Shown piece after piece: positions 11,129 to 61,620 of a stretch of 64,000 nucleotides of DNA. How positions within the stretch are numbered: the stretch's first letter is position 1; each line of letters starts with the position of its first letter. The notes below the pieces were generated by a model. That model did no database searches. It worked only from the letters and a program-made list of their open reading frames with translations, and was not told the origin of the DNA. Both the position numbers and the translations under genes were made by a program. Source of the stretch: a phage; the sequence record PV636258.1. The stretch is one strand, 5' to 3'.

Positions 11129-11158
11129 AAAAAGAAATCCCCCTGTATTTAGGGGGAT
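11129..11158 (-). terminator. hairpin terminator containing CTAAATAC box
   Basis: stem atccccc/gggggat followed by TTCTTTTTCT on minus strand. Confidence 0.5.
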
Positions 11159-11163
11159 TGTCA

Positions 11164-11406
11164 TCAAGGCTTGATCAAAGTCAGCTTGACGGTTTCACCC
11201 GTGCTGGTGTTCGTCAGGGTCATAATGTTCTGTGCGTTCACAGACTTCACTTTCCCCTGATGTTTATCCCCGTTGCGATCATAGTAATCAATCAAATCGC
11301 CTTTGTTAGGGCGGCCAACGTCGGTGATGTCATACATGCCCTGCTGTCCAAGACGGCGATGGTCAACCTTTGCTTCCTTCAAGAGGAAGTCCTGGAATCC
11401 TTTCAT
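11164..11406 (-). CDS. hypothetical protein (80 aa)
   Basis: ATG 11406 with AAGGAGG SD. Confidence 0.55.
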   Translation of the reverse strand: MKGFQDFLLKEAKVDHRRLGQQGMYDITDVGRPNKGDLIDYYDRNGDKHQGKVKSVNAQNIMTLTNTSTGETVKLTLIKP

Positions 11407-11415
11407 ACAACCTCC

Positions 11416-11985
11416 TTAGACAGGTTTAACGCCGATATATTTGGCAATGTCCGCAGCTAGGGTTTTTCCCTTACTGATGTCATGCTGTTTGCCAGCGACT
11501 GTGACAATTACATATGGATCGTCTTCTCCGCCGAAGTCGATTGCGACAGGTTTTCCAATACCAGGAATACCGGAATATTCAAACTCTGTACGACCGCTTT
11601 TACGAGATTTGCCAACGCCCAGCGCTTTACCGATCATCTTATCCATGTTCGCCAATTCTTGGGCATAGGATTCTGTGACCTGACCTTTGCTGGCATCTTT
11701 CCCAAAGAAGAACTCAAAACCGTCATGAACGGCAACCACATCTTTACCGACAGAAACTGCATGAACCTGGTCCGGTGTGAGTTTTACTTTGGTGGTGTTG
11801 CCGTTAGTCAATTCCAGATTATAGATGTCGGCCTGATTATCTGGAGTGATCTGGGTTACGGTGGCACCAGTACACCATTGGGTTCCGTCGGCCTGTTTGG
11901 TGATGGTTACACTTTTGCCTTGTATGCCGCCATGAGTTTGCGGTTGTTGAGCTTGTTCTTTAAAATATTCGATAAACGGTTTCAT
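11416..11985 (-). CDS. hypothetical protein (189 aa), late-promoter context
   Basis: ATG 11985 with AGGAGA SD; CTAAATAC 25 nt upstream. Confidence 0.6.
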   Translation of the reverse strand: MKPFIEYFKEQAQQPQTHGGIQGKSVTITKQADGTQWCTGATVTQITPDNQADIYNLELTNGNTTKVKLTPDQVHAVSVGKDVVAVHDGFEFFFGKDASKGQVTESYAQELANMDKMIGKALGVGKSRKSGRTEFEYSGIPGIGKPVAIDFGGEDDPYVIVTVAGKQHDISKGKTLAADIAKYIGVKPV

Positions 11986-12010
11986 CGTGGATCTCCTAAG
12001 GATTTTGATG

Positions 12011-12017
12011 TATTTAG
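12011..12017 (-). promoter_or_regulatory. late-promoter-like box CTAAATA
   Basis: minus strand gggCTAAATACatc 25 nt upstream of ATG 11985. Confidence 0.4.
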
Positions 12018-12036
12018 CCCCCGAAGGGGCTATGAC

Positions 12037-14766: not shown

Positions 14767-14834
14767 TGTAATTCTCCTGATTATAAAATCGGTGCGGTTT
14801 CCCTTAATTAGCGAAAAGAAAGGGGTGCTTCTTA

Positions 14835-15110: not shown

Positions 15111-15158
15111 AATGTAGTTCCTGCTTTTCAAGTTGGTGTCGTACTGCTTATGTTTAGA

Positions 15159-15186
15159 ATTATACGTGGGTTATTGAAGAAGTAAA
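15159..15186 (-). promoter_or_regulatory. sigma70-like early promoter TTTACTtcttcaataa...TATAAT
   Basis: minus strand TTTACTtcttcaataacccacgTATAAT immediately after hairpin 15187..15200. Confidence 0.5.
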
Positions 15187-15206
15187 GGGGCTTTTGCCCC
15201 TTTTAT
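15187..15206 (-). terminator. hairpin terminator ggggcttttgcccc
   Basis: perfect 5-bp GC stem with flanking A/T runs downstream of 15215..15853. Confidence 0.5.
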
Positions 15207-15214
15207 TGAATAAT

Positions 15215-15853: not shown

Positions 15854-16470
15854 TATCTGGTCCTCTTGAGTTTCTCAATCGTGCGCTTATTCATGGCGAT
15901 CACTCCTGGGTCGACCTTTGGGTTTATTGCCATGCCTTTGAAAGACACACATCGTTGAAGATATTTAGCCTTCTTCACGACGTCGGCTGCATAAGAATTG
16001 GATTTCTGGTTACGATTGAACCCAGCATTGTAAGAGGAAAGGGATTTGCGGATGTTTTGGTTATGATATTCTAGCCAGAAATTCATTTCATCAAGGGCAG
16101 CATTGGCAGCATATTCTTGATTGACCAGTAATTTGATCGCGACATTGGCGTAACACTTCTGCGTTTTGCATCCCTCCCGTTTCCCGACGGTTTGGACGCG
16201 ATTTTGAAATGCCCCCATATTAGCCGATTTGAGGTTATTCCGCATGGATACAACATCTTCTCCGGCGCGGCTTTCCCTCCATGATATTGCGGCGAGAGTG
16301 AAACCAAGGTCTTGTTGTTTTCCCACGTGATAGGCTGTGGCCATGGTTGAAAGTTGTTGATCAGAAAACTCATAATCACATTGGGTGGTACTTTGGGAAG
16401 CGTGCACACTCCCGCTGGCAATGGTAAAGGTCACGGACAAGGCCATGGCCTTCAACGTTGTCATCGTCAT
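15853..16470 (-). CDS. secreted lytic transglycosylase-like protein (SLT domain) with signal peptide
   Basis: N-terminal signal peptide MTMTTLKAMALSVTFTIASGSVHA; catalytic-type ES motif (WRESRAGED) followed by GAFQ; AAGGAA SD. Confidence 0.6.
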   Translation of the reverse strand: MTMTTLKAMALSVTFTIASGSVHASQSTTQCDYEFSDQQLSTMATAYHVGKQQDLGFTLAAISWRESRAGEDVVSMRNNLKSANMGAFQNRVQTVGKREGCKTQKCYANVAIKLLVNQEYAANAALDEMNFWLEYHNQNIRKSLSSYNAGFNRNQKSNSYAADVVKKAKYLQRCVSFKGMAINPKVDPGVIAMNKRTIEKLKRTR

Positions 16471-16548
16471 GATGGCGTTCCTTATGTGTTTGTCGACTTG
16501 CAGCTCGCTGGAGCCTCCTGACAGGGTTAAAAGATAAAGGGCACGTGA

Positions 16549-16555
16549 TATTTAG
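16549..16555 (-). promoter_or_regulatory. late-promoter-like box CTAAATA in hairpin loop
   Basis: minus strand gggcaCTAAATATCacgtgccc, about 78 nt upstream of SLT gene start. Confidence 0.3.
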
Positions 16556-19805: not shown

Positions 19806-20921
19806 TTATGCATCCAATGTGTTCAGGCGTTGTTGGGCAGCATTATAAAATTGTTCTGCAAGTTTGCAAACATTTTCAGGGCGCTGGATATTGTTGGCTG
19901 CGCGGATATCATTTTTCAAGACTTCCACCGCATCAGTAGCCACCATCTCTTCAGTGACTTCTACCTTCTCGGAAGCAACAGTAATCGTCCGATCGATGAA
20001 GTTGTAATCGATGCATTTACAGCGCTTCAATGCGTCACAGAACTTTTCATAATGCTTGGCATTGTCACGGTTCTGTACAATCACCTTAACGATTTGCCCT
20101 TCAATACCCAAAACATTGTTTAACCAATCGGGGTCGATCCAATTACCTTCAGTATCAGAAGACATTTGTGTGTAGTCGTATTCCACGAACCGGAACAACG
20201 TTTGTTGTTCGTTGTTGGGGATAAACAATTCCCCGCCATTCATGTCGTCTACATAGAATCCTCGGTTCGTCCCGTCTTTGTGGTCTTCCCAGGTAAGGTG
20301 ATAAGGAGTCCCAATATACTGAATGTTACCTTCCATCGAACGGGTATGGAAATGTCCGGTATCCACGCGCTCGAATTTCGAAAGGAGCGCCAAGTCGATC
20401 TGACCTTTATCACATACAGAGGACTGGTACATTTTGAACCCTGCCAACTCCAGATGCGCAAAACAGTACTTGGCGTCTGTATCTTGTATCGCTTTAATGG
20501 ACGCATCATAGTTCTCTTTGTTAATCCACGGCAGTAGGAGGGTCTTGACACCTTCAATCATTACTTCAGTTGGTTCACTGTAATAATGATAAACATCTGG
20601 TGCCAATTCATTAAGATAAGAAGGCCAGTTAATGCGATTGGACTCTTCTAACGTGATATCATGGTTGCCGACGATGCCATTCCATTTAATACCTGCTTTG
20701 CGCAGCGCTGGCGTCAATTCATCTTTCAACCAATCTTTATCGCGACCATACATGAATTTGCGAACATCAAACGTATCACCAAATTGCCACACTTCTTTAA
20801 TATCGGCGTCAACCAATTCTGGAATAAAATAATTGATGAGATAATTCTTTATGAATTCTCGAACGTAACGGGAACCATTACGGCTCCCGATATGTAAATC
20901 ACCAATTTTAGCAATCGCCAT
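19806..20921 (-). CDS. 47: recombination endonuclease subunit, Mre11/SbcD-like (T4 gp47-like)
   Basis: calcineurin-like phosphoesterase motifs (GDLH, GDTFD, GNHD, GHFH) colinear with T4 gp47. Confidence 0.9.
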   Translation of the reverse strand: MAIAKIGDLHIGSRNGSRYVREFIKNYLINYFIPELVDADIKEVWQFGDTFDVRKFMYGRDKDWLKDELTPALRKAGIKWNGIVGNHDITLEESNRINWPSYLNELAPDVYHYYSEPTEVMIEGVKTLLLPWINKENYDASIKAIQDTDAKYCFAHLELAGFKMYQSSVCDKGQIDLALLSKFERVDTGHFHTRSMEGNIQYIGTPYHLTWEDHKDGTNRGFYVDDMNGGELFIPNNEQQTLFRFVEYDYTQMSSDTEGNWIDPDWLNNVLGIEGQIVKVIVQNRDNAKHYEKFCDALKRCKCIDYNFIDRTITVASEKVEVTEEMVATDAVEVLKNDIRAANNIQRPENVCKLAEQFYNAAQQRLNTLDA

Positions 20922-21699
20922 TATTTTGTTGCTCCCGTTCTAATGCTCGTTTCTTTGCTTCTTCCCAATCTGGTTCCATAGAACATATTTCGTCTTCCAG
21001 ATTGAATTGAGTAGAGCCGAAGTCATAGTCTGAATTATCTTCGGCGTCGGCGGTAATGGTATTTTCACTCTTTGTGAGACATTGAAGTATACCGCGTGGA
21101 ATTTTCTTATTCTTTTCCTCTTCTTTGATGGCGATTTGCTTTTGGCGTTCCTTTTCGCGCTGGGCTTCTTTCTTAGTTTCAAAATTTCCGATACGCTCAC
21201 GAAAGTCCATTGTTATACCAGTGCTGTCTACGAACGTCTGTTGCTGGAAGTCTGGGTCATCTGATAATGCAGCGAAACCACCTGCTTCTTCAAATGAACG
21301 CAACTTGATATAATTGTGTTCTTCTTCACTGGTGAGTTTCTTGGCGAATGAACGGTCGGCGCACATCGTTACCCAAGAGAAGAAATTGATTTTTCCTTTC
21401 TTGCCGATATGACTGACGTCAAATGTATGGAGGTAACGAAGAATGTTAACAACGGCCTCACTGACCATGTCTTCGCGGTATGGATAATCACGATAGTTGT
21501 AGCGCATACTCATGTTCTTAATAATCATCTGAACATTCATGGCCACATAATTGGGGATTCTTGGTAGGGGTGTTCCTTCGGCCAAAGCCTTTTTGCGAGC
21601 CGGAATCCAATCTCTCAATATTCCAACAACACGGTCATTATCTTCGTCTGTGAAATATTTGGTGACGTTATCACCCCTGTCTACAAAATTCATACCCAT
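20908..21699 (-). CDS. 55: late-transcription sigma factor gp55-like, with C-terminal acidic extension
   Basis: central region resembles T4 gp55 (LHTFD...FFSWVTMCADRSF); start set at ATG 21699 with GAGGA SD (track start is TTG). Confidence 0.65.
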   Translation of the reverse strand: MGMNFVDRGDNVTKYFTDEDNDRVVGILRDWIPARKKALAEGTPLPRIPNYVAMNVQMIIKNMSMRYNYRDYPYREDMVSEAVVNILRYLHTFDVSHIGKKGKINFFSWVTMCADRSFAKKLTSEEEHNYIKLRSFEEAGGFAALSDDPDFQQQTFVDSTGITMDFRERIGNFETKKEAQREKERQKQIAIKEEEKNKKIPRGILQCLTKSENTITADAEDNSDYDFGSTQFNLEDEICSMEPDWEEAKKRALEREQQNNGDC

Positions 21700-37899: not shown

Positions 37900-38018
37900 G
37901 GTATAGTCTTCCTGTTTCAGTTCAAATGTGCGCCCCGTTTGCCAGGGCGCTTCGTTTAAGTGAGGTCAATAATACGTTGAAAAGAGTTATTGAAGAATGA
38001 AGTAAAGGGAATCTTTAT

Positions 38019-41386: not shown

Positions 41387-41782
41387 TTATTCGCTTTTTG
41401 CCCGACTTGGGCGAATAGTGTATTTTGGAACCAATTTCCACTCAGAAACTTGGTCATGTTTTACAACTTTGATCCGAGACATGTCAGCCACTTCGGTTAT
41501 TTGTTCCGGATGCAAGATCTTAACCATATTCCATTGCTCCAGAAGCCGTATAATCCGATTCATACGCAGGACATCTTCACGCGTAAAGCCGTTGTAGTGC
41601 CCATCTAGCATGAACAAATGCTTGAAATGCACGATGTGATATCTGCCAAATTTATGCAGAATATGGCACGTTTGATACAAGGTGTTAGGCTCTTGACGAG
41701 TGTTAACCCCTATCCGACTCAGCGTTTCCTTGATACCCAGGAAAATCCCTGGTTTGTCTTGGTTCAATTGAACTTCAACCAT
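41387..41782 (-). CDS. regA: translational repressor RegA
   Basis: LYQTCHILHKFG...HFKH...EWKLVPKYTI closely parallels T4 RegA; start at internal ATG 41782. Confidence 0.8.
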   Translation of the reverse strand: MVEVQLNQDKPGIFLGIKETLSRIGVNTRQEPNTLYQTCHILHKFGRYHIVHFKHLFMLDGHYNGFTREDVLRMNRIIRLLEQWNMVKILHPEQITEVADMSRIKVVKHDQVSEWKLVPKYTIRPSRAKSE

Positions 41783-41880
41783 ACAGTCAACAATGCTGGC
41801 CTCATCGTTGACAGCTGAAAGTTTTAAGATGTCCAGCGTATTACGCGCCATGACTCATACCCCTTTAACAATTATTTGAA

Positions 41881-42303
41881 TTACTTAGCCTTGCGCGGTT
41901 TGGCTTTTTCGTTGCTGTTGGAACGTTCGACCTTCGCCTTGATTTCAGCCAGGACTTCTTTCGGCAGGAATCGAACATATTCTGAAGCCTTTTCAGGACT
42001 GATGTAATAATACTCAGAAATCAATTTTACATCAGGATCCATAGCTCCCTTCTTAGACCACTTGTCATAGCGACGTTTTGCCGGAATGCTATGAAACGCC
42101 AGGTTCCATTGCATCCAAGGAGTAATGGCATGGAAGCGGTTCATTTGTTCAGCAACCACAAGCGTGTCTTTACTCTGAGCAAGGCCGCGCCGAGTCATGA
42201 AAGGATCAAATGCCTTTCTGATTTCGGGGTCTTCGGTCATCAACAGATTCTCTTTGGTGCTATTCAACGCACCGAGGTAATCGAACAGTGACGGAGCGGC
42301 CAT
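41881..42303 (-). CDS. 62: clamp-loader small subunit (gp62-like)
   Basis: position between 44 and regA; IPAKRRYDKWSKK resembles T4 gp62 VPRGKRYGKWAK. Confidence 0.65.
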   Translation of the reverse strand: MAAPSLFDYLGALNSTKENLLMTEDPEIRKAFDPFMTRRGLAQSKDTLVVAEQMNRFHAITPWMQWNLAFHSIPAKRRYDKWSKKGAMDPDVKLISEYYYISPEKASEYVRFLPKEVLAEIKAKVERSNSNEKAKPRKAK

Positions 42304-43375: not shown

Positions 43376-44044
43376 TTAATCCAGCTGCATGCCGACGTAA
43401 TAGTTGATGGTGCCGTCTGCGGATTGGAAGTTAACCAGTTGCATTTCGGCACAGGCGCGGATCACGTAGTTGCCTTCGATCATTTTCAGGTTGACCACAT
43501 CAACAGGCATAGCAAAATCACCCAGAGTTGTTTCACCCAACTCAACAGTGTAATCGTTGGAATTGTCGATAGTAGTGGTCGTGCCCACCAGACGAGTTTT
43601 ACCGCCGCTGGCAACCAGACGTACAGTTTTGTGACCCAGAGTAGAACAGGCGCGAGTCAGCTCTTTCATTTTTTCAGGAGTGACCGTTGCTTCAAATTCT
43701 ACAGACGGAAGATCGATGCTGTCTGCCGGAACGACAGTCAGTTCTTTAGCGGAACGCCAGAATTGCAGTTGGGAGTTTTCACCTTTCAGCAAAATGTGGT
43801 CTTCTGACATTTCAATTTTACCGCCTTTAAAACTCGGCAGACGCTGGATTGCCAGCAATTTGGTCAGATCCAGAATCGGGAATTCGAACGGGAAGTCTTC
43901 GTCGATGTCGGCAATAGCGATAACTGTACTGGAATCGTTAACAGTGCGCAACTTTTTACCAGGTGCCAGAACGATAGAGGGGCAGATGGTTTCAAAGTTA
44001 GCCAGCAGTTGTAAAGTGCGTTCGGAGAGAGTGATCTCTTGCAT
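43376..44044 (-). CDS. 45: sliding clamp (gp45-like)
   Basis: 222 aa; N-terminus LSERTLQLLANFETI parallels T4 gp45 LSKDTTALLKNFATI; GAGGA SD before ATG 44044. Confidence 0.8.
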   Translation of the reverse strand: MQEITLSERTLQLLANFETICPSIVLAPGKKLRTVNDSSTVIAIADIDEDFPFEFPILDLTKLLAIQRLPSFKGGKIEMSEDHILLKGENSQLQFWRSAKELTVVPADSIDLPSVEFEATVTPEKMKELTRACSTLGHKTVRLVASGGKTRLVGTTTTIDNSNDYTVELGETTLGDFAMPVDVVNLKMIEGNYVIRACAEMQLVNFQSADGTINYYVGMQLD

Positions 44045-44382
44045 TAGTTGTATCCTCAAAATATAGTGGGGTTCAAGTCATATTTGACGCAAATTAGTAT
44101 CGCGTGTTTGTAGTTATAGAACAAGTAATAAATTGCCCTACGCGCGATAAATAAATGCCTGACGGCATTTATAATATTCTGTTTTAATAAAACCTTTCTT
44201 TATCAGTCTACTCGCTTCGCTCGTGATAATACTCGTTGCTCGCAAAGCTCACAACTCGTATATTACGCACGGATTGTTCAACAAGAAAGCGATTTTTATT
44301 CAACAATTAAAATATTTTATTTGGTCTAAACAGAGCATGACATTATTATGTAGCCAAGTTTGCTAACACGCGAGAAATACAT

Positions 44383-44748
44383 ATGAAGCAATTTGTTGGT
44401 TTATACGCAGTAGGGGAAGACCAAGAAGCAATTCTTTCCATATCAGAACAACGTTCGTCATTAAAAGGCGTTTATTTACAAAGCCTTTTCTGTACATCGG
44501 GGTTTGTTGTGACACCGATGATGGTGATACCATTACTCCCAAATAACAAAGGTCTGTATGTTGGTATTATTCAACAAGGCCAGGCGCGGGAAGTGAAAGT
44601 TGTTCCATTGCTGGCATCTAATGAAGAATTGTTTTCTCAGATTCTTGAGCCGAAAGTGCTACAACAATGTATTGGCACGATCGACTGTTTATTTGGTTCC
44701 AACAAAGAAGGCGAGGCAACCCCCGCCTATGTGAACCAAGATCTTTGA
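44383..44748 (+). CDS. hypothetical protein (121 aa) on opposite strand
   Basis: only long ORF in the AT-rich divergent region; weak SD. Confidence 0.3.
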   Translation: MKQFVGLYAVGEDQEAILSISEQRSSLKGVYLQSLFCTSGFVVTPMMVIPLLPNNKGLYVGIIQQGQAREVKVVPLLASNEELFSQILEPKVLQQCIGTIDCLFGSNKEGEATPAYVNQDL

Positions 44749-44753
44749 AATAG

Positions 44754-46253
44754 TTAGAGCGCCACTTTTTTCATTTTAACAGGGTGGCGCTCCATAAGAT
44801 AAAATTTATATCTCTCATGAGAATGCCTGAGAGCATGGTTGTAGGAACCGTTGTAGCGCAGGTTGTCTACCAGGTCCCAGATTCGCGCAACATCCTTAGA
44901 GGAATGCTGACGCATCAAACGCCCCAATGTCTGTATAACACGGATATAAGATTTGCTGGGATGGGCCAATATCAGATGATGGAGTTTTTTGATAGATACG
45001 CCCTGTTGCATAGTACCATATGATGCTAACAGTGTTATATCTTCCCCTTCTTCCATAGCAGCCTGAATCTGTTTACGAACTTCTGTCTTGACTTCCCCGT
45101 TGATGACGAATACGTTTTTCTTGACTGCCGATAGCATTTCATAAACCAACATCATGTGTGCATCGATACGTTCGAACATTACTGCGACGTTCCCTTTCAA
45201 AGATAGAGCCATTCGGGCTATCAATTCATTGCGGCGTTCGTTAGCAATGAGGAATTCTATTTCCTTTTGATACTCAGCACCGTGCATTTCAATACAGTCT
45301 GCCATAGGATGTATGACTTCAATCATATTAACATTGATGTCCGCCGCATATCCTAGATCGATTAAATCGCGCGCTGTAATAATTTTATGATATGCACCAA
45401 AGTGAGCAACGACTTGTAACCCTGCGACCTTTGTATTCGCCAGGGTTCCGGTTACTCCCAAACGTTGATCAGCGTTAATACAGTTGTTCAAGATGTAAGA
45501 CAATTTATCTGATTTTGATGTATGTACTTCGTCGACGACGATATCTCCAAATTGATGGAACCACTCTTTGGGTTGGTTCTGGATACCTTGCCAAGTTGAA
45601 ATAACTATGGGTTTGAAAATCTCTTTCGTTGCCCCTTCGTATATTGTCTGGACGTTCATCAATGGCTTCCATTCTGTCCCGTGGCTATATTCTTCGAAGT
45701 TGTCATACAACTGAGTCACCAAATGAATGGATGGTACAACGATTAACGTTCTCAGATTACTTTCGAGGGCATCTCTGCGTTGCCTGTAGTAACGAGCCAT
45801 GATGTACAAAATAAAGGATTTGCCGGCACTCGTGGCAGCTTCGAGGACACATCTGCTTTGGCGTATTGCTGTGGAAACAGAATCAAATTGATAATCGCGG
45901 ACAATCGCTTTTTGATATTGTTTGTTTTCGTCTCGGTACACCGCATTCAATGTATCGATGAACGCATGAATTTCTTCATCCGGAATATCTTGAATATATT
46001 TTAAGGCCGGATCTAATTTGATGGTGTAACCGTTCATCTTACAGAATTTGAACACCTCAAATAACAGGCCGATGTCGATAAGCCCAGAACTCTTTGTGAA
46101 CAGCCGCACTACGCCGTCCCATTTACTGAACGGATTCGGTTGGAAATTAGGATCTTCAAATTTGAAGTAATCGTTGAGTTCTTCACGGATATAATCCTCG
46201 GCGAGGATCCGCATTCTAACTTCGTTCACTTTGACTATTTGGATCTCAGACAT
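44754..46253 (-). CDS. uvsW: UvsW-like DNA/RNA helicase
   Basis: colinear with T4 UvsW (TSAGKS, DEVH, SGEV..E.R, LHHLILAH, QTLGR); CTAAATAC box 26 nt upstream of ATG 46253. Confidence 0.9.
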   Translation of the reverse strand: MSEIQIVKVNEVRMRILAEDYIREELNDYFKFEDPNFQPNPFSKWDGVVRLFTKSSGLIDIGLLFEVFKFCKMNGYTIKLDPALKYIQDIPDEEIHAFIDTLNAVYRDENKQYQKAIVRDYQFDSVSTAIRQSRCVLEAATSAGKSFILYIMARYYRQRRDALESNLRTLIVVPSIHLVTQLYDNFEEYSHGTEWKPLMNVQTIYEGATKEIFKPIVISTWQGIQNQPKEWFHQFGDIVVDEVHTSKSDKLSYILNNCINADQRLGVTGTLANTKVAGLQVVAHFGAYHKIITARDLIDLGYAADINVNMIEVIHPMADCIEMHGAEYQKEIEFLIANERRNELIARMALSLKGNVAVMFERIDAHMMLVYEMLSAVKKNVFVINGEVKTEVRKQIQAAMEEGEDITLLASYGTMQQGVSIKKLHHLILAHPSKSYIRVIQTLGRLMRQHSSKDVARIWDLVDNLRYNGSYNHALRHSHERYKFYLMERHPVKMKKVAL

Positions 46254-46279
46254 CACTAATTTCCCCCAATATTATGGAG

Positions 46280-46286
46280 TATTTAG
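46280..46286 (-). promoter_or_regulatory. late-promoter-like box CTAAATA upstream of uvsW
   Basis: minus strand cgCTAAATACtcc overlapping stop of upstream gene. Confidence 0.45.
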
Positions 46287-47029
46287 CGATCCGCCCAGAT
46301 TCCTTTCTGTTCTTTATCCATTTTGTGATACAGACGGACACGGTCAAACATTTTAGAAATAACGTCTTTGCGATCGAATTCGATTATGGTGGGAACAAGG
46401 GCATTTTCGTTGGATATAATATTGATTAAACGCTCTATCTTGACATTAAACATTTGTTGAAACATGACTGAGTATAGACACAATTGAATACTATAATCTT
46501 CTATCATGCTTCGAGTTTTTAGGGTGTTAGATGTTTTGAAATCGATTATGCTTGGAATTCCTTCGTAAACCCCGATGAGGTCAACACGACCAGCAAGACC
46601 CAGGACTTCGCTATATAATGGAATCTCTTGTGCATATATCTTGCTCATTTTGTTAAGGTAGGGGAAAACCTGTTTGAACATAAACACGTATTCCCCTGCA
46701 GCTTCCAGAACTTCCTTCATTGGTCTGTTTTTGAGATACAACTCACAAGCCAAATGAAGTTTTTCCCCACGGTCTGCGCAACGATGTGTTTCTATATCAG
46801 CAGCTTCATGCCCCAACTTGTCCCGCCAGGCTTCTAACCATGTATGGTCACCAGTACGCCCTAACATGGTCGTCACTGAAGTTAGTTTGACTCCAGTGGG
46901 AGAAACATAGTGACGACCATTTTCGGTAGTTACGCAAGTCAGTTCCTTAAACGGCAAGGAATATTGCTGAAATGTATGATGACGATTTTCAAAGTCATTA
47001 AGTTTGCGCAAAGCCTGTAGAGAAACCAT
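46283..47029 (-). CDS. RecB-family PD-(D/E)xK nuclease-like protein
   Basis: GRVDLIGVYEG...IIDFKTS matches D / E.K-type RecB nuclease motifs; TAATG coupling with upstream gene. Confidence 0.55.
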   Translation of the reverse strand: MVSLQALRKLNDFENRHHTFQQYSLPFKELTCVTTENGRHYVSPTGVKLTSVTTMLGRTGDHTWLEAWRDKLGHEAADIETHRCADRGEKLHLACELYLKNRPMKEVLEAAGEYVFMFKQVFPYLNKMSKIYAQEIPLYSEVLGLAGRVDLIGVYEGIPSIIDFKTSNTLKTRSMIEDYSIQLCLYSVMFQQMFNVKIERLINIISNENALVPTIIEFDRKDVISKMFDRVRLYHKMDKEQKGIWADR

Positions 47030-48020: not shown

Positions 48021-48083
48021 GTTAGCACCTTTGCTGTGGAGAACGTTTTAGTGTTCCTGATACGCGGATTCAGAAAATGGATC

Positions 48084-48704
48084 ATGACGATGATAATGGT
48101 GCTTGCACTCACAAGTTGCCGTATCTTTGTCACGTCCGTCATTTCTGTAACCGACCTCTGGGATCCTGAAATCAGAACCATACCTGTTAACATCTCAGCC
48201 GACATTGATAAATGCAATAAAAATATTCTGAATCAAGTAGTATCTGATTTTCAGAACTTCCAGACTCTTCAAGCTGTTGGTTGTTTTGATGATAACAACC
48301 AGTCACTGAGACCATACTGGAAAACCACGATTCCCCTATTGAGGAAAGGTGACGAAGGAAAGATCCCATATCTATCCGCAAGTATTTATTACTCTCAGAA
48401 TAATAGCATCATAGCGACTTTCAATCCTTCTTTCTTTGACAAACTTAGAAGGAATACTCAAGCAAGGGACGTAGAAATCACCAGAGACGTTGCAATATCA
48501 TTTCAGATAGTTAATAACACCAAATCTCCGATCCGAATTGCCACTCAGGGTGTTTTCGTTAATGGATCTGCTGTGGGTAATGAAATGAACATCTATGAAA
48601 TAAGACCAGGCGGTAAAGTATGGATTCGAATGAGTGATGTTGGGGTGAACTCCCTGGTGATGGAAGGTATCGAACCAGTGGGAGTTCTCCCCGCTAGACA
48701 TTGA
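48084..48704 (+). CDS. putative lipoprotein (206 aa) on opposite strand
   Basis: MTMIMVLALTSC lipobox-type signal peptide; divergent from 47523..48020; abuts stop of 48705..49433. Confidence 0.4.
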   Translation: MTMIMVLALTSCRIFVTSVISVTDLWDPEIRTIPVNISADIDKCNKNILNQVVSDFQNFQTLQAVGCFDDNNQSLRPYWKTTIPLLRKGDEGKIPYLSASIYYSQNNSIIATFNPSFFDKLRRNTQARDVEITRDVAISFQIVNNTKSPIRIATQGVFVNGSAVGNEMNIYEIRPGGKVWIRMSDVGVNSLVMEGIEPVGVLPARH

Positions 48705-49433: not shown

Positions 49434-49455
49434 AAAATACCCCCAATTTTGGGGG

Positions 49456-49463
49456 TATTTATA
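49456..49463 (-). promoter_or_regulatory. T4-type late promoter box TATAAATA within perfect palindrome 49435..49460
   Basis: minus strand TATAAATACCCCCAAAATTGGGGGTATTT, 22 nt upstream of ATG 49433. Confidence 0.5.
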
Positions 49464-49666: not shown

Positions 49667-49674
49667 TATTTATA
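49667..49674 (-). promoter_or_regulatory. late promoter box TATAAATA
   Basis: exact T4 late consensus on minus strand upstream of small membrane ORF. Confidence 0.45.
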
Positions 49675-50948: not shown

Positions 50949-50997
50949 GATGTAGATCCTTCATTTCAGAGTCAGTGTTGTGCTGCTTATGGAATGA

Positions 50998-51025
50998 AGT
51001 ATACGGGGTTTATTGAAGAAGTAAA
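50998..51025 (-). promoter_or_regulatory. sigma70-like early promoter TTTACTtcttcaataa...TATACT
   Basis: minus strand TTTACTtcttcaataaaccccgTATACT overlapping hairpin 51004..51030. Confidence 0.5.
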
Positions 51026-51051
51026 CCCCGTTTATTGAATAAATTTTAAAT

Positions 51052-54655: not shown

Positions 54656-54746
54656 GATGCTCGTTCCTTACATTGATATTCAGTTAAGTTGAAATTACTT
54701 AGTAGTTCAAAATCAAGCCCCCTTTCGAGGGCTGTGGCTGCTAAAA

Positions 54747-55614: not shown

Positions 55615-55621
55615 TATTTAG
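55615..55621 (-). promoter_or_regulatory. late-promoter-like box CTAAATA upstream of gp22
   Basis: minus strand cactaaatactg, 28 nt before ATG 55586. Confidence 0.45.
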
Positions 55622-56832: not shown

Positions 56833-56839
56833 TATTTAG
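56833..56839 (-). promoter_or_regulatory. late-promoter-like box CTAAATA
   Basis: minus strand aactaaatatag immediately after portal stop. Confidence 0.4.
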
Positions 56840-58529: not shown

Positions 58530-58596
58530 GATCTAAGTCCTCAACATTTTCTTGTAATTAGTGAGGGGGAATAACATTCCCCCAGCACCGAGGACA

Positions 58597-59130
58597 TTAC
58601 AATGACTTGTCAGAAACGGCTTGGAAATAACGCAAGTCGACAGTGAACTGTGTGTAAGAGTCCATTGCCGACATATCGAGTTCCAGTTGGCCGAGGTTTT
58701 GAGGCCAGCCGCCCTGTAAAGTCCATGTCTTAGTCACGTTGTCATTCGCGTCCAGAAGTTCCATGATGATATCACGGAAATAATCATCTGGATTCGCGCT
58801 GGCGCGGTTGTTTTCACTACCGTTGATGAATTGCTGCCACACTTCAAAAGCATTGTATGGAGCGTTGTTCACCACGTTAATGAACGTCACAGGAAGCGCT
58901 TCGAAACGACGATCCCCTGGGAACGGAAGTTCACGACCACCCCAGGGCACCAGAATTTCGCCCAGCTGACCTGTTGGGGTGTTGGTGGTTACAGCCAGCA
59001 AGGACACGTCACGAATTGTGTCGGAACCAGCAACAAAAGAAGGAAAGTTTACAGTCACACGCCAGCGGTGTTGGCGTTGTACGCCGCCCCCTCGTGACAT
59101 GGCTGCGCGAAACTCATTGACTGTCGCCAT
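58597..59130 (-). CDS. 19: tail tube protein (gp19-like)
   Basis: 177 aa immediately downstream of sheath gene region; GGAGAT SD. Confidence 0.8.
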   Translation of the reverse strand: MATVNEFRAAMSRGGGVQRQHRWRVTVNFPSFVAGSDTIRDVSLLAVTTNTPTGQLGEILVPWGGRELPFPGDRRFEALPVTFINVVNNAPYNAFEVWQQFINGSENNRASANPDDYFRDIIMELLDANDNVTKTWTLQGGWPQNLGQLELDMSAMDSYTQFTVDLRYFQAVSDKSL

Positions 59131-59160
59131 TTTTATATCTCCAAATAAGAGTACACAATT

Positions 59161-59619
59161 CTAATTAGTCGTCAATCTTTTAATCTTCATGGAAGAAAAA
59201 TCAAATCCGTGGTCAACATTGCTTAAAACGGGTTCGATTTCACACAATTCCCAACGGGGATCTATGAGAGAAACAAGACCAATGTGTTCACCTGTGGATG
59301 TCAATTTTGCTGCAGTTTTACCCAGCATATGACTTCCATCATTACCGCCTTTATTCATGTTGTAACCCATCTCATAAGAATTATATTGAGCGATGAGTTG
59401 CTTCTCTAATTCCCATTTATGGACTTCATCGGTCTGAGCAATTACAACGAAAGTAAATCCAGATGTTCCATACTTACGCATAGCATCATACAATTCACTT
59501 TGGACTCCATGATGAAAAGCATTCGCAAAATGCTGATCATATCTTCGTTGTGGGTGATTGGTCACACCGATGTAGACCTTTCCATTAGTTATCGTTTCAA
59601 TTTTGTATGCGTATATCAT
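59161..59619 (-). CDS. GIY-YIG homing endonuclease (free-standing, between genes 18 and 19)
   Basis: N-terminal IYAYKIETITNGKVYIGVT...RRYDQH GIY-YIG motif. Confidence 0.8.
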   Translation of the reverse strand: MIYAYKIETITNGKVYIGVTNHPQRRYDQHFANAFHHGVQSELYDAMRKYGTSGFTFVVIAQTDEVHKWELEKQLIAQYNSYEMGYNMNKGGNDGSHMLGKTAAKLTSTGEHIGLVSLIDPRWELCEIEPVLSNVDHGFDFSSMKIKRLTTN

Positions 59620-59640
59620 TCAATAACTCAAATCAATAAG

Positions 59641-59667
59641 ACAAAGGAAAACCCCGCCGAAGCGGGG
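59641..59667 (-). terminator. rho-independent terminator after tail sheath gene
   Basis: hairpin ccccgc-cgaa-gcgggg followed by TTTTCCTTTG on minus strand. Confidence 0.65.
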
Positions 59668-59675
59668 TTGGTCAT

Positions 59676-61571
59676 TTATGAAGCAGCAACGATGCCGCCA
59701 CCGGATTCGATTTCCGAGAATTCCATGTCCGGACGAACGGCAGCAAAGTCAAGATACACCCAATTTATGCTGTATTCCGGTTTCAACCAAATGCCTGCAA
59801 CCATTTGGTTTGCCGCAATGACATCAGCAGTGTTGTTGTCTTCATCACATTTGACTTTACCATCGTAAATCGCGCCCATATTTGCCAGCTGGCGAATATA
59901 TGGACGAACCGCATTGCTGAACAGACCACGTGTAAACGCGTCATTGTTCTCACCAAGATAGTATTTGGCGATTGCGGCGATGTTCTGCTCAGCCATGATG
60001 AACAGACCACGAACGTTGATGCGGTCAAACGCCGACGGGCGGGTCAAGCCAGTTTTGTCACCATACAGGACGATGCCTTCATTGGAGAAGGTTACGATGC
60101 TGTTGATCTGATTGCGGTACAACACAGCACGTTCATCAGAAGACGCGGACCACGCCATTCGATTATAGTTGTTGTATTTACCACGGTTGTGGAACGCCGG
60201 AGATTTGTAGATACCCGCGATTTCAATGCTTCGCGCCCAAACACCTGCGGTGCCACCACAAGCCGGAATCCAACGCATTTTGTCGTTGTACTTGTCGTAC
60301 ACGTATGCCCAGTTATCATCCATGAAGAAATAAGAAGAGTCGCGAACAAGGCTTTCACGCCAAGCAACGACATCATCCATTTCACGACCACGGTTGCCAA
60401 CAACCGTATCACGGAGCGGGGATACGAAAGATACGGTATCTTTTCGCTCAGTAGATAAGTCGATCAATGCTTGTTGCTCAATCAGTTCTTCACAGTACGC
60501 AAATACTGGCTTCGCATCATATGCTTCAGCGTTGTTCAAGACTTGGATAGCTGCCACGCGGTTGATGTTATAATCGTCTACGCCGCCTTCTAATTCAACG
60601 ACACCTGCTACCAGTTCACTCGCGAAGGTATACACCCAATTTGAAGTATCGTTGATCACGTCTTTGAAGTACGCATTCGCACCATCGGATTTTTTAGAAC
60701 CCTGGGTATTCTGCATCAGTTCGTATTTTTCAATGATGGAACCAGAAGCGCCAACAGTAGTGATTACGGCTGTTGCAGTCAGTCCTTTATCATCAGGAAC
60801 GATAGCTGTAACGGCCTGAGGACCGATAGCTTTATGGGTCACGATGACAGTGTTGGACTTCACGACAACAGAAGAATAAACACTTGTCAGGGAAGTCAGC
60901 GCTGTACCGATTTTGGTTGCCAAAGTGGCTGGAGTATCAGTATCCAGATATGCGATATCTTCACCCGCCACACTGATGGTGCCAGCAGCAGTAGCCGTAC
61001 CAGAAACGGAGATACGGTCAACCTGACCGACCGCGCCAGCAGAGTCGGTAATGCGACCAACTTTGTCTACGACAACTACATGGAATTCACCAGACTGAGG
61101 TGCGTATGCAAAGTTATTACGGAATTCCCAAGTCGAGAACCCAGCAGCATCACAAACATTGATAGCAATATCATTGCCCAGGGAACCTGGATAACGACCA
61201 GTCCAAGTGATGGACGCCGAAGGACTTGCTGTTTCAAAATCCAGTTTGTTTTTGATCGCAATCGCTGTCTGACCTTTGGTAACAGAGTTCTTGGCTAGAG
61301 GACCAACAACACGGGTCACCCATGCCATAGAGCTGTAAGACAAAAAGTCCGCGATTACGAGAAAATCGGTCGCAGTACTGTCGTTGGGTTTGAAGAATTT
61401 CTTCACCAAACCTGTCTCACCACCAGTCACCAGCACTGGAAGTTCAACTTCACCCCATTGAAATTTGCCGACGGTCGCGCCCTGAACAACAACGGACGGA
61501 GACGTCTGAAGCGTGGCATCACGCTCAGTCCACTGAACGGACGGCGCAACGCTGAAGCTTTGAGTTGCCAT
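59676..61571 (-). CDS. 18: tail sheath protein (gp18-like)
   Basis: 631 aa; ATG 61571 with GAAGGAA SD; track start is non-ATG; CTAAATAT box upstream. Confidence 0.9.
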   Translation of the reverse strand: MATQSFSVAPSVQWTERDATLQTSPSVVVQGATVGKFQWGEVELPVLVTGGETGLVKKFFKPNDSTATDFLVIADFLSYSSMAWVTRVVGPLAKNSVTKGQTAIAIKNKLDFETASPSASITWTGRYPGSLGNDIAINVCDAAGFSTWEFRNNFAYAPQSGEFHVVVVDKVGRITDSAGAVGQVDRISVSGTATAAGTISVAGEDIAYLDTDTPATLATKIGTALTSLTSVYSSVVVKSNTVIVTHKAIGPQAVTAIVPDDKGLTATAVITTVGASGSIIEKYELMQNTQGSKKSDGANAYFKDVINDTSNWVYTFASELVAGVVELEGGVDDYNINRVAAIQVLNNAEAYDAKPVFAYCEELIEQQALIDLSTERKDTVSFVSPLRDTVVGNRGREMDDVVAWRESLVRDSSYFFMDDNWAYVYDKYNDKMRWIPACGGTAGVWARSIEIAGIYKSPAFHNRGKYNNYNRMAWSASSDERAVLYRNQINSIVTFSNEGIVLYGDKTGLTRPSAFDRINVRGLFIMAEQNIAAIAKYYLGENNDAFTRGLFSNAVRPYIRQLANMGAIYDGKVKCDEDNNTADVIAANQMVAGIWLKPEYSINWVYLDFAAVRPDMEFSEIESGGGIVAAS

Positions 61572-61613
61572 AATATCATTCCTTCTCGGTAGAGTTTCGC
61601 TCAATTTGAAAGA

Positions 61614-61620
61614 TATTTAG
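61614..61620 (-). promoter_or_regulatory. late-promoter-like box CTAAATA upstream of gp18
   Basis: minus strand cactaaatatc between terminase stop and sheath start. Confidence 0.45.

What the first reader, a model, noticed from the sequence alone, without database searches (positions are those of the whole stretch)
11146..61620. Late promoters appear to use CTAAATA(C/T), with two exact T4-type TATAAATA boxes
CTAAATA(C/T) lies 25-42 nt upstream of the starts of gp18, gp22, a small head-region ORF, uvsW and two small genes at 11-12 kb, and about 78 nt upstream of the lytic transglycosylase gene. TATAAATA occurs upstream of two adjacent genes at 49.4-49.7 kb, one embedded in a perfect 26-nt palindrome (AAATACCCCCAATTTTGGGGGTATTT). 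This is consistent with gp55-dependent late transcription using a variant box.
Basis: partly seen in the sequence, partly recalled or inferred. Interest (0 to 1): 0.5.

Follow-up and report, generated by a model that had tools for sequence, protein, structure and literature searches.

The report
ViI-like phage late promoter boxes
The short sequence CTAAATA that precedes the head, tail and lysis genes of this Salmonella ViI-like phage is almost certainly its late-gene promoter, a variant of the phage T4 signal that is already described in the literature, so the finding is real but not new.

Summary
The window is a Kuttervirus (ViI-like, Ackermannviridae) genome segment. CTAAATA occurs 8 times, all on the coding (minus) strand, and 7 copies lie 25-78 nt upstream of start codons. 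It is the most position-enriched 7-mer in the window (p~4e-9) and in the whole CBA120 genome (17 of 25 copies in the -60..-15 zone, p~1e-21).

The boxes persist at orthologous sites in relatives down to 29-65% protein identity while the flanks diverge. In CBA120 they precede 15 of 26 late genes and 0 of 34 early or DNA-metabolism genes.

The gp55-type late-promoter reading is supported in silico. It is not new: CTAAATA starting at -12 was described for Aeromonas phage Aeh1 (2006), and "CTAAATAcCcc" is a published Ackermannviridae regulatory motif.

One addition: the "cCcc" tail is an anti-Shine-Dalgarno arm. At the endolysin, orf171, uvsW and about ten other late genes, the box plus tail pairs with the ribosome-binding site. 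Only transcripts started at the box would then be translatable, as in T4 genes e, soc and 49. No transcript mapping exists.

The parts
61614..61620 (-). CTAAATA box, 42 nt upstream of gp18 (tail sheath), directly after the gp17 stop codon
   Evidence: CAC-TAAATA is conserved in relatives down to 66% gp18 identity.
59162..59168 (-). CTAATTA variant box, 31 nt upstream of gp19 (tail tube). It overlaps the end of the SegD homing-endonuclease gene.
   Evidence: The orthologous site is CTAATTA or CTAAATA in relatives, including those without SegD.
58555..58561 (-). CTAATTA variant box, 25 nt upstream of gp20 (portal).
56833..56839 (-). CTAAATA box, 27 nt upstream of orf192. It heads the tight orf192-gp68-gp21 operon.
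   Evidence: The site reads CTAAATA or CTAAGTA in relatives. gp68 and gp21 have no box of their own.
55615..55621 (-). CTAAATA box, 28 nt upstream of gp22 (scaffold)
   Evidence: Conserved down to relatives with 29% gp22 identity (L027, L028).
54696..54702 (-). CTAAGTA variant box, 40 nt upstream of gp23 (major capsid protein), after a hairpin that follows gp22.
   Evidence: The orthologous position holds canonical CTAAATA in L023-L025, L027 and L028.
49667..49674 (-). TATAAATA box, 31 nt upstream of orf173. Its TAA is the stop codon of orf174.
   Evidence: ATAAATA is kept in several relatives; the T at -13 is not.
49456..49463 (-). TATAAATA box, 22 nt upstream of orf171 (DUF7217)
   Evidence: The core TAAATACCCC is invariant in 12 distinct relatives, while the base before it varies among A, T and C.
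49435..49460 (-). Hairpin AAAUACCCCCA/UGGGGGUAUUU. The 5' arm is the 3' part of the box plus the C-run. The 3' arm is the Shine-Dalgarno sequence (GGGGG) plus UAUUU, just before the orf171 AUG.
   Evidence: -16.6 kcal/mol, z=-3.1. An RNA starting 6 nt after the box is unstructured, 0 kcal/mol. The loop-proximal pairs differ between genera but stay complementary.
46280..46286 (-). CTAAATA box, 26 nt upstream of uvsW. Its TAA is the stop codon of the exonuclease gene.
   Evidence: Conserved down to 62% UvsW identity.
46252..46290 (-). Hairpin pairing the box region (AUCGCUAA...CUCCA) with the uvsW Shine-Dalgarno and start region (UGGGG...UUAGUGAU)
   Evidence: -14.3 kcal/mol, z=-5.0. The late-start RNA folds at 0 kcal/mol. 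It is less conserved in distant relatives.
41882..41888 (-). CTAAGTA candidate box inside the 3' end of gp62, 30 nt upstream of the RegA homolog
   Evidence: RegA is identified by PF01818, E=4e-35. The same site is present in CBA120. Conservation in other genera was not checked.
16549..16555 (-). CTAAATA box in the loop of a hairpin (GGGCAC...GUGCCC followed by UUUAUCUUUU), 78 nt upstream of the SLT-domain gene orf114
   Evidence: The orthologous loops read CTAAATA or CTAATTA. The SLT domain scores 21.6 bits against a 21.3-bit cutoff.
15962..15968 (-). CTAAATA inside orf114, 108 nt upstream of orf113. Possible internal late promoter.
   Evidence: The codons GCT-AAA-TAT never vary in 7 distinct relatives, while neighbouring codons show synonymous changes. 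This is suggestive only.
14805..14811 (-). CTAATTA variant box, 38 nt upstream of a 909-aa gene (PHROG 3867).
   Evidence: TCGC-TAATTA is invariant in 12 relatives whose upstream sequences differ.
12011..12017 (-). CTAAATA box directly after a GCCCC-UUCG-GGGGC hairpin, 25 nt upstream of orf109
   Evidence: The orthologous site reads CTAAATA, CTAATTA or TTATAAATA in different relatives.
11146..11152 (-). CTAAATA box in the loop of a terminator-like hairpin (11136-11159, followed by a T-run), 31 nt upstream of orf108 (DUF5856)
   Evidence: The hairpin is flagged as terminator-like. In L044 the hairpin is absent but CAC-TAAATA-C remains.
7226..7232 (-). TTAAATA variant box, 30 nt upstream of the endolysin gene (muramidase plus PG-binding domain).
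   Evidence: Pfam PF11860 E=4e-58. The box is invariant in all relatives examined.
7200..7230 (-). Hairpin AAAUACCUUCGCA/UGCGGAGGUAUUU. The box plus its tail pairs with the endolysin Shine-Dalgarno sequence (GGAGG).
   Evidence: -18.0 kcal/mol, z=-7.5. The late-start RNA folds at -3.5 kcal/mol. The stem is maintained through G-U changes in relatives.
5451..5457 (-). TTAAATA overlapping the PhoH stop codon, 81 nt upstream of nrdA. Doubtful as a late promoter.
   Evidence: An exact early-type TTCAAT-N14-TATAAT motif lies between it and nrdA, at 5403-5428.
20908..21699 (-). gp55 homolog, the presumed late sigma factor that reads the boxes. It lies next to gp47 and gp46, as in T4.
   Evidence: PHROG 234 E=1.6e-53. 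tblastn reaches annotated cyanophage gp55 genes. It is 18% identical to T4 gp55 over 122 aa, pairwise E=0.005.
43376..44044 (-). gp45 sliding-clamp homolog, the activator of late transcription in T4
   Evidence: 100% identical to the CBA120 protein annotated gp45. Pfam gp45-slide_C scores 19.9 bits, below the 25-bit cutoff.

Best explanation
The boxes are the -10-type elements of this phage's late promoters.

Consensus and geometry. The consensus is (A)C-T-A-A-[A, less often T or G]-T-A. By analogy with T4 it occupies positions -12 to -6. There is no conserved sequence in the 10 nt upstream of it.

Mechanism (inferred). Host RNA polymerase core carrying the phage gp55 sigma factor, helped by gp33 and the gp45 sliding clamp, opens DNA at the box. 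Transcription starts about 6 nt downstream, giving short leaders of roughly 15-35 nt that carry the ribosome-binding site.

Transcription units in this window. Each head or tail unit has its own box: gp18, gp19, gp20, orf192-gp68-gp21, gp22 and gp23. So do the endolysin, uvsW, orf171, orf173, orf108, orf109, a 909-aa gene, the SLT-domain gene and probably regA.

Two recurrent contexts.
(a) The box lies in the loop of, or directly after, the hairpin that ends the upstream gene. Late initiation would then restart transcription past a terminator.
(b) The 3' half of the box plus a C/T-rich tail (the published 'cCcc') forms the 5' arm of a strong hairpin. Its 3' arm is the Shine-Dalgarno sequence plus UAUUU. 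Read-through RNA from upstream would have its ribosome-binding site sequestered. RNA started at the box would lack the 5' arm and be translatable.

What is shown: motif position, strand bias, gene-class association, cross-genus conservation and predicted folding.
What is inferred: the transcription start point, dependence on gp55, gp33 and gp45, and the translational gating.
For: Position and strand:
- 8 of 8 CTAAATA copies are on the coding strand, and 7 lie 25-78 nt upstream of starts.
- CTAAATA is the top 7-mer in an unbiased positional scan of the window (p=3.6e-9).
- It is also the top 7-mer in all of CBA120: 17 of 25 copies in the -60..-15 zone, p=9e-22, with the reverse complement at 1.
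- The degenerate box gives 28 hits in the window, 14 of them 14-50 nt upstream of a same-strand start (p=8e-16).

Gene class: 15 of 26 late genes carry a box against 0 of 34 early or DNA-metabolism genes. In CBA120, boxes also head divergent late units that need their own promoter: gp48, gp2/orf081, gp26 and gp5.

Conservation:
- Orthologous boxes are kept while flanks diverge.
- CTAAATA, CTAATTA, CTAAGTA and TATAAATA interchange at the same site.
- In distant relatives the gene-strand to opposite-strand counts are 10:0, 13:0, 8:0 and 8:1.

Start point: the predicted +1 is a purine at 27 of 35 sites and C at 1.

Machinery: gp55 matches PHROG 234, gp45 is in the window, and gp33 is annotated in CBA120.

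Literature:
- T4 TATAAATA lies at -13..-6, and Aeh1 uses CTAAATA from -12 (PMC1524935; PMC2988020).
- CTAAATAcCcc is listed as an Ackermannviridae regulatory motif (PMC7283392).

Hairpins:
- The SD window pairs with the segment absent from a late-start RNA at 17 of 34 box sites, against 15 of 168 non-box genes (Fisher p=1.5e-7).
- Shuffling the box-proximal 15 nt removes the effect: mean ddG -6.3 observed against -2.7 +/- 0.3 shuffled.
- Window hairpins have z-scores of -3.1, -7.5 and -5.0.
- The T4 precedent is genes e, soc, 49 and I-TevI (PMC3014915).
Against: - No transcript 5' ends, timing data or gp55 dependence are available for any ViI-like phage in the held literature.
- gp55 here is very distant from T4 gp55: 18% identity, pairwise E=0.005. 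It has no Pfam, NCBIfam or PDB sequence match.
- Some late genes have no proximal box, including gp3 and gp17 in the window and gp4, gp13 and tailspike 1 in CBA120.
- Three boxes overlap the upstream gene's TAA stop codon, so part of their conservation could be coding constraint.
- Within-site covariation for the hairpins is thin: 2 pairs, each changed in one sequence.
- The C-rich segment after the box at hairpin sites departs from the AT-rich melting region described for T4.
- The uvsW hairpin is not kept in the most distant relative.
Confidence: 0.8

Rival explanations
1. The box is an RNA-level signal rather than a promoter. It could be a processing or cleavage site, or a leader element, in long polycistronic late transcripts. 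That would also place a conserved 7-mer at a fixed distance before many start codons.
For: The fixed distance to start codons (22-42 nt) and the frequent association with RNA hairpins would suit an RNA element. The T4 review itself warns that primer-extension ends do not distinguish initiation from processing.
Against: - The motif equals the published late-promoter variant of Aeh1 and differs from T4's at one position.
- In CBA120 it heads divergent late units where no same-strand upstream transcript is expected: gp48, gp2/orf081, gp26 and gp5.
- At orf108 the box persists in a relative whose upstream gene and hairpin have been replaced (L044).
Confidence: 0.08
2. The pattern is a by-product of composition. 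Intergenic DNA is AT-rich and contains TAA stop codons, so a TAAATA-like word accumulates there by chance.
For: The count of CTAAATAY alone is only about 2.4 times expectation, and TATAAATA is at expectation. Three boxes contain the upstream gene's TAA stop.
Against: - CTAAATA ranks first among all 7-mers for positional enrichment in the window and genome-wide. Its reverse complement has 1 zone hit against 17.
- Most boxes do not overlap stop codons.
- Boxes are retained at orthologous sites while neighbouring intergenic bases change.
- They are associated with late genes and not early genes.
Confidence: 0.02
3. The box-containing hairpins are not translational gates. They are intrinsic terminators of the upstream gene, or 5' stabilising stem-loops, and their overlap with the ribosome-binding site is incidental.
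For: - The orf108 hairpin with the box in its loop is flagged as terminator-like.
- The orf114 hairpin has a T-run after it.
- The stems at orf171 and the endolysin end in UAUUUU, which resembles a weak U-tract.
- Covariation evidence is thin.
Against: - The orf171 and endolysin hairpins are not picked up by the terminator scan.
- Their 3' arm is the SD itself, at normal spacing from the AUG.
- SD pairing to the promoter-proximal segment is about 10 times more frequent at box sites than at other genes.
- The genes concerned include the endolysin and the RuvC resolvase. I take these to be functional counterparts of T4 genes e and 49, the classic gated genes (the equivalence is my own inference).
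Confidence: 0.3
4. The box is a promoter or operator read by a factor other than gp55, for example host sigma-70 using it as an extended -10 element, or an unidentified phage protein.
For: The phage gp55 is so diverged from T4 gp55 that equivalence of function is an assumption. TAAATA resembles a degenerate TATAAT.
Against: - No conserved -35-like element appears in the 10 nt examined upstream of the box.
- Genuine sigma-70-like and early-type motifs occur at other genes.
- The box is restricted to late-class genes.
- gp55, gp33 and gp45 homologs are all present.
Confidence: 0.07

Closest known systems
Bacteriophage T4 late promoters (TATAAATA at -13 to -6; gp55 sigma, gp33 co-activator, gp45 sliding clamp)
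   Same: A single short AT-rich -10-type box with no -35 element. It is placed just upstream of virion, lysis and some recombination genes. The TAAATA core is identical. Homologs of gp55, gp45 and gp33 are present. uvsW carries a box here; by my recollection T4 uvsW is also a late gene.
   Different: Position -12 is C (23 of 35 sites) rather than A, and position -13 is not T. Position -8 tolerates T or G. The segment after the box is often C-rich rather than AT-rich. The gp55 here is 263 aa and only about 18% identical to T4 gp55.
Aeromonas phage Aeh1 putative late promoters (CTAAATA beginning at -12; Nolan et al. 2006, PMC1524935)
   Same: The same seven bases, with C at -12 as the discriminating feature. 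Both were found in silico upstream of orthologs of T4 late genes. In both cases the gp55 is described as strongly diverged.
   Different: Aeh1 is a different phage lineage from Ackermannviridae. I did not compare the two gp55 proteins. The CTAATTA and CTAAGTA variants and the C-rich tail were not part of what I read about Aeh1.
'CTAAATAcCcc' regulatory motif of ViI-like phages (Viunalikevirus/Ackermannviridae), quoted in PMC7283392. By my recollection it was first reported in Adriaenssens et al. 2012, Arch Virol 157:2035, which I could not read.
   Same: It is the same element in the same phage group. Sites with the full CTAAATACCCC form occur upstream of tailspikes 2-4, orf229, RuvC and orf171 in CBA120.
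   Different: The published 11-mer describes only the hairpin-type subset. Most head and tail gene boxes in this window lack the C-run. The paper I could read calls it a 'regulatory motif' without stating a function or noting that the C-run pairs with the ribosome-binding site.
T4 genes e (lysozyme), soc, 49 (endonuclease VII) and I-TevI: translational gating by a hairpin whose 5' strand is encoded by the late promoter region (PMC3014915)
   Same: The Shine-Dalgarno sequence is sequestered in read-through RNA, and the late promoter is positioned so that late RNA lacks the 5' arm. The gated genes here include the endolysin and, in CBA120, the RuvC resolvase. I take these to be functional counterparts of T4 e and 49.
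   Different: Here this is prediction only. It appears far more widespread, at roughly 12-17 genes per genome including tailspikes, gp6 and gp14. The promoter box itself, rather than sequence near it, forms the outer part of the stem.

Membership tests
T4-type (gp55-dependent) late promoter | A single short -10-type box related to TATAAATA, with no conserved upstream (-35) element | tested here: met
   The TAAATA core is invariant at all candidate sites, 6-7 of 8 T4 positions match, and information content is low at -22..-13. Positions further upstream, including -35 itself, were not profiled.
T4-type (gp55-dependent) late promoter | Located upstream of late (virion, lysis) genes and absent from early genes | tested here: met
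   In CBA120, 15 of 26 late genes against 0 of 34 early or DNA-metabolism genes carry a box 14-50 nt upstream (Fisher p=1.5e-7). Late genes without a box lie inside operons. In the window, boxes precede gp18, gp19, gp20, gp22, gp23 and the endolysin.
T4-type (gp55-dependent) late promoter | The genome encodes gp55, gp33 and gp45 homologs | tested here: met
   gp55: PHROG 234 E=1.6e-53, but only a weak pairwise match to T4 gp55 (E=0.005). gp45: identical to the CBA120 protein annotated gp45, with a sub-threshold Pfam hit. gp33: annotated in CBA120 outside the window and stated in PMC3184105.
T4-type (gp55-dependent) late promoter | Primary transcripts start about 6 nt downstream of the box, at late times, dependent on gp55 and DNA replication | not testable with these tools
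   The only indirect hint is that the predicted +1 is a purine at 27 of 35 sites. No RNA data were found.
Aeh1-type late promoter variant | C at position -12 (CTAAATA) instead of A | tested here: met
   C at -12 in 23 of 35 CBA120 sites and 12 of the 14 window sites that lie 14-50 nt upstream of a start. A or T fills the rest, and no GTAAATA copy in the window lies upstream of a start.
T4 gene e-type translational gating hairpin | The Shine-Dalgarno sequence and/or AUG is sequestered in a stable helix in RNA that reads through from upstream | tested here: met
   Prediction only. Endolysin -18.0 kcal/mol (z=-7.5), orf171 -16.6 (z=-3.1), uvsW -14.3 (z=-5.0). Genome-wide the pattern is present at 17 of 34 box sites against 15 of 168 other genes.
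T4 gene e-type translational gating hairpin | The late promoter encodes the 5' strand, so late transcripts lack it | tested here: met
   This is geometric. With +1 placed 6 nt after the box, predicted late RNAs fold at 0 to -3.5 kcal/mol. The assumed start point is itself unverified.
T4 gene e-type translational gating hairpin | Early read-through transcripts exist and are poorly translated, while late transcripts are well translated | not testable with these tools
   Needs RNA mapping and reporter or proteomic timing data.
Intrinsic (Rho-independent) terminator | A G+C-rich hairpin followed by a T-run | tested here: inconclusive
   The orf108 hairpin (box in the loop) is flagged. The orf171 and endolysin hairpins are not.

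The most novel reading that the evidence does not exclude
The C-rich tail of the published CTAAATAcCcc motif is an anti-Shine-Dalgarno sequence. ViI-like phages would then run a genome-wide regulon of a dozen or more late genes, including the endolysin, the RuvC resolvase, tailspikes 2-4, gp6, gp14, uvsW and orf171. In each, the promoter box itself forms the outer stem of a hairpin that silences translation of any read-through transcript. These proteins could then be made only from gp55-initiated RNA. This would be the T4 gene e/soc/49 trick used as a general design principle rather than as a handful of special cases.
Probability: 0.5. Interest if true: 0.5.

Novelty: already known. Interest (0 to 1): 0.3.

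Why it matters
Knowing the late promoter gives a practical map of transcription units for Kuttervirus and other Ackermannviridae phages. These phages are widely used for biocontrol, detection (reporter phages) and host-range engineering, so inserted genes can be placed behind defined late signals.

The box list also flags uncharacterised genes as late-class, for example orf108, orf109, orf171, orf173 and the 909-aa gene.

The promoter-embedded anti-SD hairpins, if real, would explain how the endolysin and other dangerous or dose-sensitive proteins are kept silent on early read-through RNA. They would also need to be preserved or deliberately removed in engineered constructs.

As biology, it is a further example of a gp55-type sigma factor whose specificity has shifted at one position (-12).

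Tried and rejected
- The paper I remember as the source of CTAAATAcCcc (Adriaenssens 2012, Arch Virol; PMC4174289) is not held. Its wording on function rests on my memory.
- A plain literature search for CTAAATA returned thousands of irrelevant primer hits. CTAAATAC plus 'phage' found the EspM4VN paper.
- Searches for Ackermannviridae or Kuttervirus transcriptome or TSS data found nothing relevant.
- The annotation of the closest record, Salmonella phage 38, is fragmented by apparent frameshifts. I transferred the CBA120 annotation instead.
- gp55 gave no hit in Pfam, NCBIfam or PDB sequence searches. Only PHROGs and a weak pairwise match to T4 gp55 link it to the family.
- RNAalifold covariation on the orf171 hairpin was weak, because the outer stem is invariant.
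- I considered and rejected the ideas that TATAAATA marks a distinct 'T4-type' class of box and that the trailing C/T is part of the motif.
- I considered the TTAAATA at the PhoH stop as an nrdA late promoter and judged it doubtful.
- gp3 and gp17 have no proximal box.

Full report
IDENTITY OF THE WINDOW
The 64-kb window is part of a Kuttervirus (ViI-like phage, family Ackermannviridae). Depending on the segment, it is 99.3-99.6% identical to Salmonella phages 38 and Chennai, and 97% identical to E. coli phage CBA120. Almost all genes are on the minus strand.

The RefSeq annotation of phage 38 is broken into many fragments. I therefore transferred the CBA120 annotation to the window by tblastn and added a few extra ORFs.

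The window runs from the nrd genes and the endolysin, through gp61, gp46/47, gp55, the gp45/44/62/regA cluster, uvsW, uvsY and gp3, to the head and tail module gp23-gp22-gp21-gp68-gp20-gp19-gp18-gp17.

CHECKING THE OBSERVATION
CTAAATA occurs eight times, always on the minus strand, at exactly the coordinates given. Seven copies are intergenic. They end 42 nt (gp18), 27 (orf192), 28 (gp22), 26 (uvsW), 25 (orf109), 31 (orf108) and 78 nt (SLT-domain gene orf114) before the start codon. The eighth lies inside orf114.

The count is only modestly above chance: 8 against 3.3 expected, and 1 of 100 shuffles reached 8. Placement is not chance. In a scan of every 7-mer, CTAAATA ranks first for enrichment in the sense-strand zone -90..-15 of 85 gene starts (7 of 8 copies in 4.6% of positions, p=3.6e-9). 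TAAATA ranks first among 6-mers.

TATAAATA occurs twice, which is the chance expectation, but both copies sit 22-31 nt upstream of starts.

The quoted 26-nt palindrome is 24 of 26 symmetric: 12-nt arms around a 2-nt centre.

Reading all intergenic regions and aligning orthologous upstream regions from relatives shows one-base variants at the same distance from other late genes:
- CTAAGTA, 40 nt before gp23
- CTAATTA, 25 nt before gp20
- CTAATTA, 31 nt before gp19, overlapping the end of an inserted SegD homing-endonuclease gene
- CTAATTA, 38 nt before a 909-aa gene
- TTAAATA, 30 nt before the endolysin gene
- CTAAGTA, 30 nt before the RegA homolog

With the degenerate pattern CTAA[A/T/G]TA or [A/T]TAAATA there are 28 hits in the window. 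Fourteen of them lie 14-50 nt upstream of a same-strand start codon, a zone holding 2.5% of positions (p=8e-16).

CONSERVATION
I fetched 45 loci from IMG/VR around gp21 and around orf114. They span 100% down to 47% identity of the anchor protein.

- The gp18, gp22, gp23, gp19, uvsW, orf171, orf108, orf109, orf114, 909-aa-gene and endolysin boxes are all retained at the orthologous position while adjacent intergenic bases change.
- The variants substitute for each other at the same site. gp23 has CTAAGTA in Kuttervirus and its nearer relatives, and CTAAATA in more distant ones. gp19 alternates between CTAATTA and CTAAATA. orf109 shows CTAAATA, CTAATTA or TTATAAATA. The orf114 loop shows CTAAATA or CTAATTA.
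- The two 'T4-exact' TATAAATA boxes of the window are not conserved as such. Only NTAAATA is.
- In the most distant loci, CTAAATA is 10:0, 13:0, 8:0 and 8:1 on the gene strand versus the opposite strand.

GENOME-WIDE GENE-CLASS ASSOCIATION
I assembled the whole CBA120 genome with its T4-style annotation.

- CTAAATA is again the top 7-mer: 17 of 25 copies in the -60..-15 zone (p=9e-22). Its reverse complement has one copy there.
- A box 14-50 nt upstream is present at 15 of 26 recognisable late genes and 0 of 34 early or DNA-metabolism genes (Fisher p=1.5e-7).
- Late genes without a box (gp21, gp68, gp17, gp16, gp15, gp53, gp25 and others) follow a box-bearing gene closely.
- Boxes also head divergent late units that must have their own promoter: gp48, gp2/orf081, gp26 and gp5.
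- The distance from box end to start codon has a median of 32 nt.
- The position 6 nt after the box, where T4 geometry predicts +1, is a purine at 27 of 35 sites and C at one.

MACHINERY
The window encodes a gp55 homolog (PHROG 234 'late sigma transcription factor', E=1.6e-53). It lies next to gp47 and gp46, as in T4. tblastn links it to annotated cyanophage gp55 genes at 24-30% identity.

Pairwise with T4 gp55 it is only 18% identical over 122 residues (E=0.005). It has no Pfam, NCBIfam or PDB sequence match.

gp45 is in the window, and gp33 is annotated elsewhere in CBA120. The CBA120 paper states that all three homologs are present (PMC3184105).

COMPARISON WITH WHAT IS KNOWN
- T4 late promoters are an 8-bp TATAAATA at -13 to -6 with no -35 element (PMC2988020; PMC1524935).
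- For Aeromonas phage Aeh1, Nolan et al. [quoted passage not shown] They noted that C at -12 is rare in other T4 relatives and that Aeh1 gp55 is strongly diverged. That is the same variant seen here.
- For ViI-like phages, the 2011 CBA120 paper said the late promoter was not yet identified.
[quoted passage not shown] I recall this motif from Adriaenssens et al. 2012 (Arch Virol), which I could not open.

The element is therefore already in the literature. What the present analysis adds is quantitative support, the variant boxes and the site list for this window.

AN ADDITIONAL FEATURE: PROMOTER-EMBEDDED ANTI-SHINE-DALGARNO HAIRPINS
At orf171 the box and a C-run (AAAUACCCCC) pair with GGGGGUAUUU, which is the ribosome-binding site plus the bases before the AUG. 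At the endolysin, AAAUACCUUCGC pairs with GCGGAGGUAUUU. At uvsW the box region pairs with the SD and start region.

- These fold at -16.6, -18.0 and -14.3 kcal/mol, with z = -3.1, -7.5 and -5.0 against shuffles. RNAs beginning 6 nt after the box fold at 0, -3.5 and 0 kcal/mol.
- Across CBA120 the same architecture recurs at RuvC, gp14, gp6, tailspikes 2-4, orf229, orf249 and others, each with a different inner stem.
- The SD window pairs with the segment that a late-start RNA would lack at 17 of 34 box sites against 15 of 168 other genes (Fisher p=1.5e-7).
- Shuffling the 15 box-proximal bases removes the effect: mean ddG -6.3 observed against -2.7 +/- 0.3 shuffled.
- In relatives the orf171 outer stem is invariant, while the loop-proximal pairs change yet remain complementary (AA/UU, A/U, AU/AU, AC/GU, UGA/UCA). 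Formal covariation is thin, with two pairs each changed in one sequence.

This explains the 'cCcc' of the published motif. [quoted passage not shown]

The rival reading is that these are terminators. It fits the orf108 hairpin, which has the box in its loop and is flagged, and probably the orf114 hairpin. The terminator scan does not flag the orf171 or endolysin hairpins.

VERDICT
The gp55-type late-promoter interpretation is supported as far as sequence analysis can go, with confidence about 0.8. It remains untested experimentally.

It is already known as a motif of this phage group, and as the late promoter of Aeh1. Interest is therefore low to moderate.

The translational-gating reading of the hairpin subset is a plausible extension of a known T4 mechanism, with probability about 0.5. 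It is the only part that might be new.

One caveat from general knowledge: ViI-like phages carry hypermodified thymidines in their DNA (the topic of PMC5889632, listed). This could influence recognition of a T/A-rich box, and no sequence analysis captures it.

Noticed in passing
window 5403-5428 (-), 15111-15214 (-), 50949-51051 (-), 8328-8526 (-), 37900-38018 (-): A second family of intergenic motifs occurs before non-late genes: TTCAAT-N14-TATAAT (1 exact and 5 one-mismatch copies against 0.75 expected) and repeated TTCAATAA / TTTACTTCT(TCAATAA) blocks. TTACTTCT is 5 of 5 in the upstream zone. These are probably the early, sigma-70-like promoters, the other published Ackermannviridae motif.
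   Followed up: partly
window 59161-59619 (-): A SegD-type GIY-YIG homing-endonuclease gene is inserted between gp18 and gp19, and its 3' end overlaps the gp19 box CTAATTA. Relatives without this insert have unrelated upstream sequence but keep a CTAAATA or CTAATTA box at the same distance from gp19.
   Followed up: partly
window 16471-16548 (-): The 78-nt leader between the orf114 box/hairpin and the orf114 start codon (AACCCTGTCAGGAGGCTC...GAGCTGCAAGTCGACAAAC...) is almost invariant in relatives whose orf114 protein is only about 82% identical. It may be a structured leader or contain a tiny ORF.
   Followed up: no
window 15962-15968 (-): CTAAATA inside orf114: the codons GCT-AAA-TAT show no synonymous change in 7 distinct relatives, while flanking codons do. 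It is possibly an internal late promoter for orf113, 108 nt downstream.
   Followed up: partly
window 48021-48050 and 48383-48389 (-): gp3 (tail completion) diverges from the plus-strand gene orf170 with only 30 nt between them and has no proximal box. The nearest same-strand box-like word (ATAAATAC) lies 362 nt upstream, antisense within orf170.
   Followed up: no
window 44045-44753: A 709-nt stretch between uvsW and gp45 has no gene in the CBA120 annotation. It is AT-rich and has hairpins. The phage 38 record annotates an opposite-strand ORF here, corresponding to window 44383-44748 (+), 121 aa.
   Followed up: no
window 41387-41851 (-): CBA120 orf160, annotated as hypothetical, is a clear RegA translational-repressor homolog (PF01818, E=4e-35). 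It sits after gp45-gp44-gp62 as in T4 and has a CTAAGTA box 30 nt upstream.
   Followed up: partly
L003/L004 (NC_029042, Salmonella phage 38): The RefSeq record of the closest relative splits gp18, gp20, gp21, gp23, gp46, nrdA and others into several CDS each. The window has intact ORFs, so that record probably carries frameshift sequencing errors.
   Followed up: no
database hits H8 and H36: Records labelled 'Pseudomonas phage Pa-sanjiao' and 'Enterococcus phage Efm 3-10' are 98-99.6% identical to Salmonella Kuttervirus sequence. The host labels are implausible, so the records may be mislabelled or contaminated.
   Followed up: no
window 1092-1684 and 9798-10079: Two 'intergenic' gaps left by the transferred CBA120 annotation contain minus-strand ORFs (1196-1582, 128 aa; 9794-10114, 106 aa). 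These are probably real genes missing from that annotation.
   Followed up: no
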